From assembly GCF_044324785.1 (NCBI RefSeq), contig NZ_CP172127.1: 64,000 bases of DNA; one strand, written 5' to 3'. The translations under genes and the position numbers were made by a program. Source of the DNA: Escherichia coli. GTDB lineage: Bacteria > Pseudomonadota > Gammaproteobacteria > Enterobacterales > Enterobacteriaceae. How positions within the stretch are numbered: the first letter of the stretch is position 1; every line of letters starts with the position of its first letter. The notes beneath the pieces were generated by a model. That model did not search any database, was not told where the DNA came from, and saw only the letters and a program-made list of their open reading frames with translations. Positions 22,698 through 22,774 of the stretch are shown here, in pieces.

Positions 22698-22774
22698 TAG
22701 AGCAGGCGACTCATAATCGCTTGGTCGCTGGTTCAAGTCCAGCAAGGGCCACCATATCAGCATTCACGTATCAG
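22698..22774 (+). tRNA. ileY: tRNA with CAT anticodon; sequence and context match tRNA-Ile2 (lysidine-modified, ileY-like) rather than tRNA-Met
   Basis: ggccctttagctcagtggttagagcaggcgaCTCATAAtcgcttggtcgctggttcaagtccagcaagggccacca; 7-bp acceptor stem, T-loop GTTCAAGTCC, encoded CCA. Confidence 0.9.

What the first reader, a model, noticed from the sequence alone, without database searches (positions are those of the whole stretch)
22698..22774. tRNA-Ile2 (CAT anticodon) as island anchor; acceptor-stem variant
The tRNA has anticodon CAT but an Ile2-type body (ileX/ileY-like). The acceptor stem reads GGCCCTT/AAGGGCC; my recollection of the K-12 sequence is GGCCCCT/AGGGGCC, which would be a compensated base-pair change. 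The tRNA sits at the junction between two divergently oriented low-GC genes, consistent with use as an integration target.
Basis: partly seen in the sequence, partly recalled or inferred. Interest (0 to 1): 0.2.

Follow-up and report, generated by a model that had tools for sequence, protein, structure and literature searches.

The report
Ordinary ileY tRNA, empty phage site
The feature is the well-known E. coli gene ileY (the rare-codon AUA isoleucine tRNA), identical to the K-12 copy; it is a documented phage 186 attachment site that is unoccupied here, so the finding is ordinary.

Summary
A tRNA with anticodon CAT is present, but at 22679-22754 (+), about 20 nt upstream of the reported coordinates. 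It is 100% identical to E. coli K-12 ileY. There is therefore no new acceptor-stem variant.

The integration-target idea is correct for the locus in general. The GenBank record of phage 186 annotates its attP as sharing the 3' end of ileY, with the predicted crossover in the anticodon loop (window 22710-22716). E. coli QEC11-421 carries a P2/186-like prophage at this site, followed by an exact 45-nt partial copy of ileY. In this window the site is empty.

The low-GC neighbours are not cargo anchored at the tRNA. ileY lies inside a 10.7-kb variable block (19731-30468: ygaQ, ileY, ypjCB, an invertase scar, ypjA). B2-type strains such as ATCC 25922 have 333 nt of unrelated sequence in place of this block and keep only ileX. 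All of this is already known biology, so interest is low.

The parts
22679..22754 (+). ileY, tRNA-Ile2 (anticodon CAU, read as AUA after lysidine modification of C34); 76 nt including the encoded CCA
   Evidence: ARAGORN; Rfam RF00005, 73.8 bits; 100% identical to K-12 ileY and annotated tRNA-Ile in RefSeq
22710..22754 (+). Unoccupied attB core for phage 186 / P2-like integrases (tRNA positions 32-76). The predicted 7-nt crossover is the anticodon loop CTCATAA at 22710-22716
   Evidence: 44/45 identical to phage 186 attP. The NC_001317 record annotates 'in common with attB ... 3' end of ileY' and 'predicted crossover region'. An exact 45-nt partial copy forms the attR of a P2-like prophage in QEC11-421
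19867..22119 (-). ygaQ, alpha-amylase-family protein; intact 750 aa here, a pseudogene in K-12; GC 0.377, AUA 28 per 1000 codons
23505..24959 (+). ypjCB (DUF5507 + DUF5508); intact 484 aa here, a pseudogene in K-12; GC 0.347, AUA 20.6 per 1000 codons
25320..25474 (+). Mobile-element scar: serine recombinase (invertase, pinH-like) fragment with an internal stop, preceded by an IS3-transposase-like peptide
   Evidence: RefSeq 'recombinase family protein, incomplete' in N3 and K-12; translation GDVLVVWKLNRLGRSMRHL...ERGINFRALT
25762..30459 (+). ypjA/ehaD, AIDA-type autotransporter adhesin (ORF coordinates; the annotated start in strain N3 maps about 130 nt further in)
19731..30468 (.). 10.7-kb variable low-GC block (GC 0.425; left 6 kb 0.37) that contains ileY. 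B2-type E. coli (ATCC 25922, ST131) have 333 unrelated nt in its place
   Evidence: blastn of the ATCC 25922 locus against the window; population survey; GC
30620..30982 (-). ssrA (tmRNA), the second RNA-gene attachment site bounding the interval; also unoccupied here (no CP4-57-type prophage)

Best explanation
The feature is the standard E. coli ileY gene, one of two genes (with ileX) for tRNA-Ile2. From established knowledge, its CAU anticodon is converted by TilS to lysidine-AU, so the tRNA is charged with isoleucine and reads the rare AUA codon. The U6-A67 pair is the normal ileY allele. ileX has C6-G67, and this pair is not among the E. coli TilS identity elements (4:69 and 5:68), which are C:G in both genes. 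The 3' 45 nt of the gene (anticodon loop to CCA) is the attB used by phage 186 and related P2-like integrases. In this genome that site is empty. The gene sits inside an old 10.7-kb AUA-rich low-GC accessory block (ygaQ to ypjA) between glaH and ssrA, not at the edge of an island.
For: Shown:
- tRNA detection.
- 76/76 identity to K-12 ileY, with a single compensated difference from ileX.
- 100% matches annotated tRNA-Ile in many E. coli genomes.
- K-12 synteny glaH-ygaQ-ileY-ypjCB-recombinase fragment-ypjA.
- 2855 of 5426 complete E. coli genomes carry the same uninterrupted ileY junction.
- The phage 186 record annotates attP/attB homology with ileY, with the crossover in the anticodon loop; the literature agrees (PMC3448106, PMC8767318).
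- An occupied site with an exact 45-nt attR copy exists in QEC11-421.
- No repeat of the tRNA 3' part is found in the window at any sensitivity tried.
- Block boundaries are 19731 and 30468 relative to ATCC 25922.
- Block divergence from K-12 (94-95%) is similar to the adjacent core genes (95-97.5%), so the block is not a recent arrival.
- TilS identity elements are taken from PMC11947777.

Inferred: lysidine modification and AUA decoding, from identity to the characterised K-12 gene.
Against: Nothing contradicts it. Caveats: expression, modification and attB competence were not tested experimentally. No strong sigma-70 promoter or plus-strand terminator for the tRNA was found by the simple scan. 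Whether the block was gained or lost in evolution is unresolved, because the outgroup scan was truncated.
Confidence: 0.93

Rival explanations
1. One reading: ileY anchors a genomic island, and the low-GC DNA downstream (ypjCB, invertase scar, ypjA) is the decayed cargo of an element that once integrated at the tRNA 3' end.
For: Low GC and high AUA use in the neighbours. An invertase fragment and an IS3-like fragment lie 2.6 kb downstream. ileY is a proven attB. The interval is highly variable across E. coli.
Against: There is no tyrosine integrase. No direct repeat of the tRNA 3' end was found, even a degenerate one. The low-GC DNA extends equally upstream of the tRNA (ygaQ). The presence/absence polymorphism has its ends at 19731 and 30468, not at 22754. 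The scar is a serine invertase, not the integrase type known to use this tRNA. Block divergence is like that of core genes.
Confidence: 0.1
2. ileY is a passenger, not an anchor: a second tRNA-Ile2 copy that arrived with (or within) the low-GC block and supplies extra AUA-decoding capacity, much as phage-borne tRNA-Ile2 genes do.
For: ileX at rpoD-mug is the conserved copy in every intact-tRNA locus with recognisable context across Enterobacterales in the sample, while an ileY-type context appeared only in an E. coli-like contig. About 37-40% of the E. coli records sampled have only ileX, and B2-type strains lack the whole block. Homology between the ileX and ileY loci is limited to the tRNA plus a few flanking bases. 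The adjacent genes use AUA at 21-28 per 1000 codons, against 0-2.4 in the flanking core genes. Many phages carry near-identical tRNA-Ile2 genes.
Against: High AUA use follows automatically from low GC. Loss of the block in B2 explains the distribution equally well, and IS-mediated losses of ileY are documented (PMC3032704). The block is as diverged as the core genes. No functional link between ileY and its neighbours was tested.
Confidence: 0.25
3. It is an elongator or initiator tRNA-Met, as ARAGORN and many phage annotations label CAT-anticodon tRNAs.
For: ARAGORN output 'tRNA-Met'; near-identical phage copies labelled tRNA-Met.
Against: It is identical to the characterised K-12 ileY and annotated tRNA-Ile by RefSeq. 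It carries the C4:G69 and C5:G68 pairs reported as E. coli TilS identity elements (PMC11947777). PMC3032704 notes this same mislabelling for strain Crooks.
Confidence: 0.01

Closest known systems
E. coli K-12 ileY (tRNA-Ile2, anticodon k2C-A-U)
   Same: 76/76 nt identical, with the same neighbours (ygaQ upstream, ypjCB downstream) and the same orientation relative to the gab operon and ssrA.
   Different: Only the context differs. ygaQ and ypjCB are intact here but pseudogenes in K-12. K-12 has the CP4-57 prophage between ypjA and ssrA, and this window does not.
E. coli K-12 ileX (tRNA-Ile2 at rpoD-mug)
   Same: 74/76 identical. The anticodon, D, anticodon and T arms are the same, as are pairs 4:69 and 5:68. 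It shares the same attB core (PMC8767318).
   Different: Pair 6:67 is C-G in ileX and U-A here. The chromosomal locus is different. ileX is the conserved copy across Enterobacterales in the sample.
Phage 186 attP/attB system (P2-like tyrosine integrase integrating into a tRNA 3' half)
   Same: Window 22710-22754 matches 186 attP at 44/45. The record annotates homology to the 3' end of ileY and places the crossover in the anticodon loop.
   Different: The site is unoccupied here: no int, cI or partial tRNA copy. 186 attP has G at tRNA position 67, so integration would leave a U6.G67 tRNA. Such alleles exist in some E. coli.
tRNA-anchored genomic islands and prophages (e.g. CP4-57 at ssrA, SpLE1-like elements at ileX/ileY)
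   Same: The locus is of the kind such elements use, and related strains show it occupied or rearranged (PMC8767318).
   Different: None of the defining parts (integrase, flanking direct repeats, boundary at the tRNA 3' end) is present in this window.

Membership tests
tRNA-Ile2 (ileX/ileY; CAU anticodon modified to lysidine) | Canonical tRNA cloverleaf with anticodon CAU | tested here: met
   ARAGORN anticodon cat at position 34; Rfam tRNA 73.8 bits
tRNA-Ile2 (ileX/ileY; CAU anticodon modified to lysidine) | Sequence identity to a characterised tRNA-Ile2 gene rather than to tRNA-Met | tested here: met
   76/76 to K-12 ileY and 74/76 to K-12 ileX; RefSeq product tRNA-Ile
tRNA-Ile2 (ileX/ileY; CAU anticodon modified to lysidine) | E. 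coli TilS identity elements C4:G69 and C5:G68 in the acceptor stem | tested here: met
   The stem GGCCCTT/AAGGGCC has C4:G69 and C5:G68; the elements are as stated in PMC11947777
tRNA-Ile2 (ileX/ileY; CAU anticodon modified to lysidine) | C34 actually converted to lysidine, and the tRNA charged with Ile | not testable with these tools
   Needs tRNA mass spectrometry or sequencing; inferred from identity to K-12 ileY
Phage 186 / P2-like attB in tRNA-Ile2 | Core sequence shared with attP, from the anticodon loop to the 3' end | tested here: met
   44/45 match to 186 attP. The 36-nt 'in common with attB' feature and the 7-nt crossover feature map to window 22709-22744 and 22710-22716
Phage 186 / P2-like attB in tRNA-Ile2 | The same chromosomal site is found occupied by such a prophage in other strains | tested here: met
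   In QEC11-421, P2-like prophage genes cI and int (split by an IS) are followed by an exact 45-nt partial ileY and then the normal ypjCB flank
   No integrase lies between glaH and ssrA. There is only a roughly 40-codon serine-invertase fragment with a stop
   25-mer and 15-mer searches with up to 3 mismatches found nothing beyond chance. No shared 11-mer was found. Ungapped scans against shuffles found nothing
   The presence/absence block is 19731-30468 and the tRNA is internal to it. Low GC lies on both sides

The most novel reading that the evidence does not exclude
ileY is not an ancestral anchor but a horizontally acquired second tRNA-Ile2 gene carried inside the low-GC ygaQ-ypjA block. 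It would be a chromosomal counterpart of phage-borne AUA tRNAs, retained because it supports translation of AUA-rich accessory genes. Its 3' half would since have been repeatedly overwritten by integrating 186-like elements, which would explain why ileY but not ileX is polymorphic in E. coli, almost only 3' of the crossover site.
Probability: 0.2. Interest if true: 0.3.

Novelty: already known. Interest (0 to 1): 0.07.

Why it matters
It matters little. ileY, its one-pair difference from ileX, its role in AUA decoding and its use as the phage 186 attachment site are all established. The practical points are these:
- CAT-anticodon tRNAs are still mislabelled tRNA-Met by some tools.
- An empty attB inside a low-GC block can look like an island anchor without being one.

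The population pattern is a modest side observation that could be followed up. ileY is missing from roughly 40% of the sampled E. coli records, and its allelic variation is confined almost entirely to the part 3' of the crossover site.

Tried and rejected
- **Direct repeat / att scar.** I used the repeat finder, mismatch-tolerant pattern searches for the tRNA and ssrA 3' ends, an 11-mer search and ungapped scans against shuffles. Nothing exceeded chance except ssrA's own tRNA-like end.
- **Inverted repeat I1 (22288-22319 / 23418-23449) as a possible invertible segment, given the nearby invertase scar.** It has only 25/32 matches, and 7 of 200 shuffles reach that. The population breakpoint at 22291 is an IS2-associated deletion, not an inversion. 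Rejected.
- **Small RNA between ileY and ypjCB.** There is a minus-strand promoter-like site and a good terminator, but no Rfam family and the fold is not exceptional (z = -1.4). Left as a note.
- **Protein-based cross-species search with YgaQ.** It returned no confirmed locus.
- **21EVA as a clean second example of integration at ileY.** The tRNA 3' half is replaced, but the 44-kb interval is a composite of several elements with the integrase at ssrA, so no att pair could be assigned.
- **tRNA-Met reading from ARAGORN.** Rejected on identity to K-12 ileY.

Full report
**Observation.** ARAGORN finds three RNA genes of this kind in the window. One is a tRNA with anticodon CAT at 22679-22754 on the + strand. 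Rfam's tRNA model matches the same place at 73.8 bits, E = 2.8e-14. The reported coordinates (22698-22774) are about 20 nt too far right. The neighbours are as described. A 750-codon ORF lies on the minus strand at 19867-22119, and a 484-codon ORF lies on the plus strand at 23505-24959. Both are in DNA of 29-44% GC, against about 50-60% in the flanks.

**Identity.** The 76 nt are 100% identical to a gene annotated tRNA-Ile in many complete E. coli genomes, including K-12 MG1655. In K-12 that gene lies between the ygaQ alpha-amylase pseudogene and the ypjC/ypjB (DUF5507) pseudogene, downstream of gabT-gabD-lhgO-glaH, which identifies it as ileY. The other K-12 tRNA-Ile2 gene lies between nfeF and mug next to rpoD, and is ileX. 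The three-way alignment shows window = K-12 ileY at every position. The compensated pair is the long-known difference between the two paralogues, not a variant of this genome. According to PMC11947777, E. coli TilS uses pairs 4:69 and 5:68 as its major identity elements. Both are C:G here, and pair 6:67 is not among the listed elements. ARAGORN's label 'tRNA-Met' is the usual ambiguity of CAT anticodons. PMC3032704 records the same mislabelling of ileY in strain Crooks.

**Is it an occupied island anchor here? No.**
- *Repeats.* No family in the general repeat search involves the tRNA. The last 25 nt and last 15 nt of the tRNA, with up to 3 mismatches, recur nowhere beyond chance. No 11-mer of the 3' part recurs in the 64 kb. 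Ungapped scans of 45, 24 and 16 nt against 8-10 kb on each side do not exceed shuffled controls, apart from the generic tRNA-like end of ssrA. The ssrA 3' end is not repeated either.
- *Integrase.* There is no integrase gene. The only recombinase trace is a roughly 40-codon serine-invertase fragment with an internal stop at about 25320-25474, preceded by an IS3-transposase-like peptide.

**Is ileY an integration target in general? Yes, and this is documented.**
- *Phage 186.* The 45 nt from the anticodon loop to CCA (22710-22754) match phage 186 at 44/45. The GenBank record annotates that stretch as a truncated tRNA-Ile 'in common with attB in Escherichia coli, which is in the 3' end of ileY', with Int arm sites, IHF and Apl sites around it. 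It annotates a 7-nt 'predicted crossover region' that corresponds to the anticodon loop CTCATAA, window 22710-22716.
- *Literature.* PMC3448106 lists IleY and IleX as the integration sites of 186. PMC8767318 notes that ileX and ileY share the same attB for SpLE1-like elements.
- *Occupied site in QEC11-421.* A P2-like prophage (cI, an integrase split by ISEc12) ends with an exact 45-nt copy of ileY positions 32-76, followed by the normal ypjCB flank. This is the arrangement expected from the gene order int-attP in 186.
- *Rearranged site in 21EVA.* The 3' half of ileY is replaced by a diverged version (C50T, G59A, T60C, G64A, A67G) and island DNA follows directly. The 44-kb interval up to ssrA is a composite of several elements, so no clean att pair can be assigned.

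**What the low-GC DNA is.**
- *Block boundaries.* Against ATCC 25922, the window is collinear at 15800-19730 and 30469-33800. The intervening 10.7 kb (19731-30468) is replaced there by 333 unrelated nt, so that glaH lies next to ssrA. That strain has only ileX.
- *Population.* 2855 of 5426 genomes have the uninterrupted ileY junction. About 37-40% of the records sampled have only the ileX match. The rest show IS-associated deletions or insertions, consistent with PMC3032704.
- *Contents.* The block contains ygaQ (weak alpha-amylase family), ileY, ypjCB (DUF5507 + DUF5508), the invertase scar and the AIDA-type autotransporter ypjA. The tRNA lies 2.9 kb and 7.7 kb from its two ends, so it is internal to the variable DNA, not at its border.
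- *Age.* The block is about as diverged from K-12 (94-95%) as the neighbouring core genes (95-97.5%), so it is a long-term resident.
- *Codon use.* ygaQ and ypjCB use AUA at 28 and 20.6 per 1000 codons, against 0-2.4 in the flanking core genes. This follows from low GC, but it places the AUA-decoding tRNA between two AUA-rich genes.

**Side observations on the tRNA in the population.** Sampled ileY loci show several alleles:
- The reference allele occurs in the window, K-12, N3, USMARC-49610 and O104:H4.
- T43C + A67G gives an uncompensated U6.G67 pair in two strains.
- C42T/T43C/T44C occurs in one strain.
- G28A + T43C occurs in one strain.

All variable positions except G28A lie 3' of the crossover site, while ileX is invariant in the sample. 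This is what repeated replacement of the 3' half by element-borne copies would produce, but it rests on a small sample.

In the cross-species sample, every intact copy with recognisable context lay at rpoD-mug, the ileX context. The only ileY-type context was a short, probably contaminant, contig. The scan was truncated, and the protein-based scan failed. Whether ileY arrived with the block or the block was lost in B2 therefore stays open.

**Verdict.** The tRNA is real, but its coordinates were misreported. It is identical to K-12 ileY and is not a variant. It is a known phage attachment site that is empty in this genome, and it lies within, not at the edge of, a known variable low-GC region. 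This is already known biology and of low interest.

Noticed in passing
window 30469-30982 and 25762-30459: ypjA runs almost directly into ssrA. The CP4-57-type prophage that separates them in K-12 is absent, and no repeat of the ssrA 3' end is present, so the ssrA attachment site is also unoccupied in this genome.
   Followed up: partly
window 19867-22119 (-) and 23505-24959 (+): ygaQ (750 aa) and ypjCB (484 aa, DUF5507 + DUF5508 fused) are intact ORFs here. K-12 and several other strains carry them as pseudogenes with internal stops.
   Followed up: partly
window 22938-23051 (-): A promoter-like site (TTAACC-16-TATAAT, 10/12) and a strong intrinsic-terminator hairpin (TGCCCGCTTGGCATAGCGGGCA + TTTTTTCC) lie on the minus strand 190-300 nt downstream of ileY. 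They could delimit a transcript of about 80 nt. There is no Rfam match and the fold z-score is only -1.4.
   Followed up: partly
window 22288-22319 and 23418-23449 (also 22241-22265 / 23465-23489): An imperfect inverted repeat brackets the 1.1-kb segment that holds ileY, in the upstream regions of ygaQ and ypjCB. It is only marginally above chance (25/32; 7 of 200 shuffles reach it). A population breakpoint at 22291 turned out to be an IS2-associated deletion.
   Followed up: yes
window 25250-25474 (+): A mobile-element scar between ypjCB and ypjA: an IS3-transposase-like peptide (GYGVPRLTDELRAQ...) is followed in frame by a serine-invertase fragment (GDVLVVWKLNRLGRSMRHL...*ERGINFRALT).
   Followed up: partly
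ileY loci L130-L135, L004, L001, L003 (alignment A4): ileY is polymorphic among E. coli, including uncompensated U6.G67 and an A28.C42 mismatch, while ileX is invariant in the sample. All variable positions but one lie 3' of the anticodon-loop crossover used by 186-type integrases.
   Followed up: partly
L032, L035, L048, L081 (Rahnella spp.): The Rahnella tRNA-Ile2 at the rpoD-mug (ileX) locus also has T6 and A67. The same compensated pair therefore occurs at the ileX locus in another genus.
   Followed up: no
L049 (MAG 'Planococcaceae bacterium UBA3370') and L021 (MAG 'Bacillota bacterium'): Short contigs assigned to Firmicutes MAGs carry an E. coli-type ileY 3' end with ypjCB (74% aa identity), or a 186-like integrase (95% aa identity) next to a partial tRNA-Ile2. 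These are probably enterobacterial contamination of the bins.
   Followed up: no
L005:7938-8888 (E. coli QEC11-421 prophage at ileY): The P2-like prophage occupying ileY carries a 'reverse transcriptase family protein' with an adjacent HTH gene (retron-like cargo) and a PIN-domain gene next to attR.
   Followed up: no
L010 (Escherichia albertii NBRC 107761): A partial tRNA-Ile2 core lies beside nfeF/nfeR, at the ileX locus. This suggests an element is integrated at ileX in the E. albertii type strain.
   Followed up: no
window 14265-14500 and whole window: The window is 97.5% identical to K-12 from proV to gabP and 95-96.5% in gabT-glaH, with a roughly 236-nt stretch between gabP and gabT that does not align to K-12. 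The closest complete genome is strain N3 (98.8-99.7%), and all other genomes listed among the top hits are 96.3% or lower across this region. The source is therefore an E. coli lineage poorly represented among complete genomes.
   Followed up: partly
window 52173-52311, 57088-57187, 48742-48867, 55308-60309, 232-309: Other Rfam hits: RyfD, StyR-44 (in the rrn spacer), the Phe leader, a complete rrn operon with tRNA-Glu, and naRNA4. All are ordinary for this part of the E. coli chromosome.
   Followed up: no
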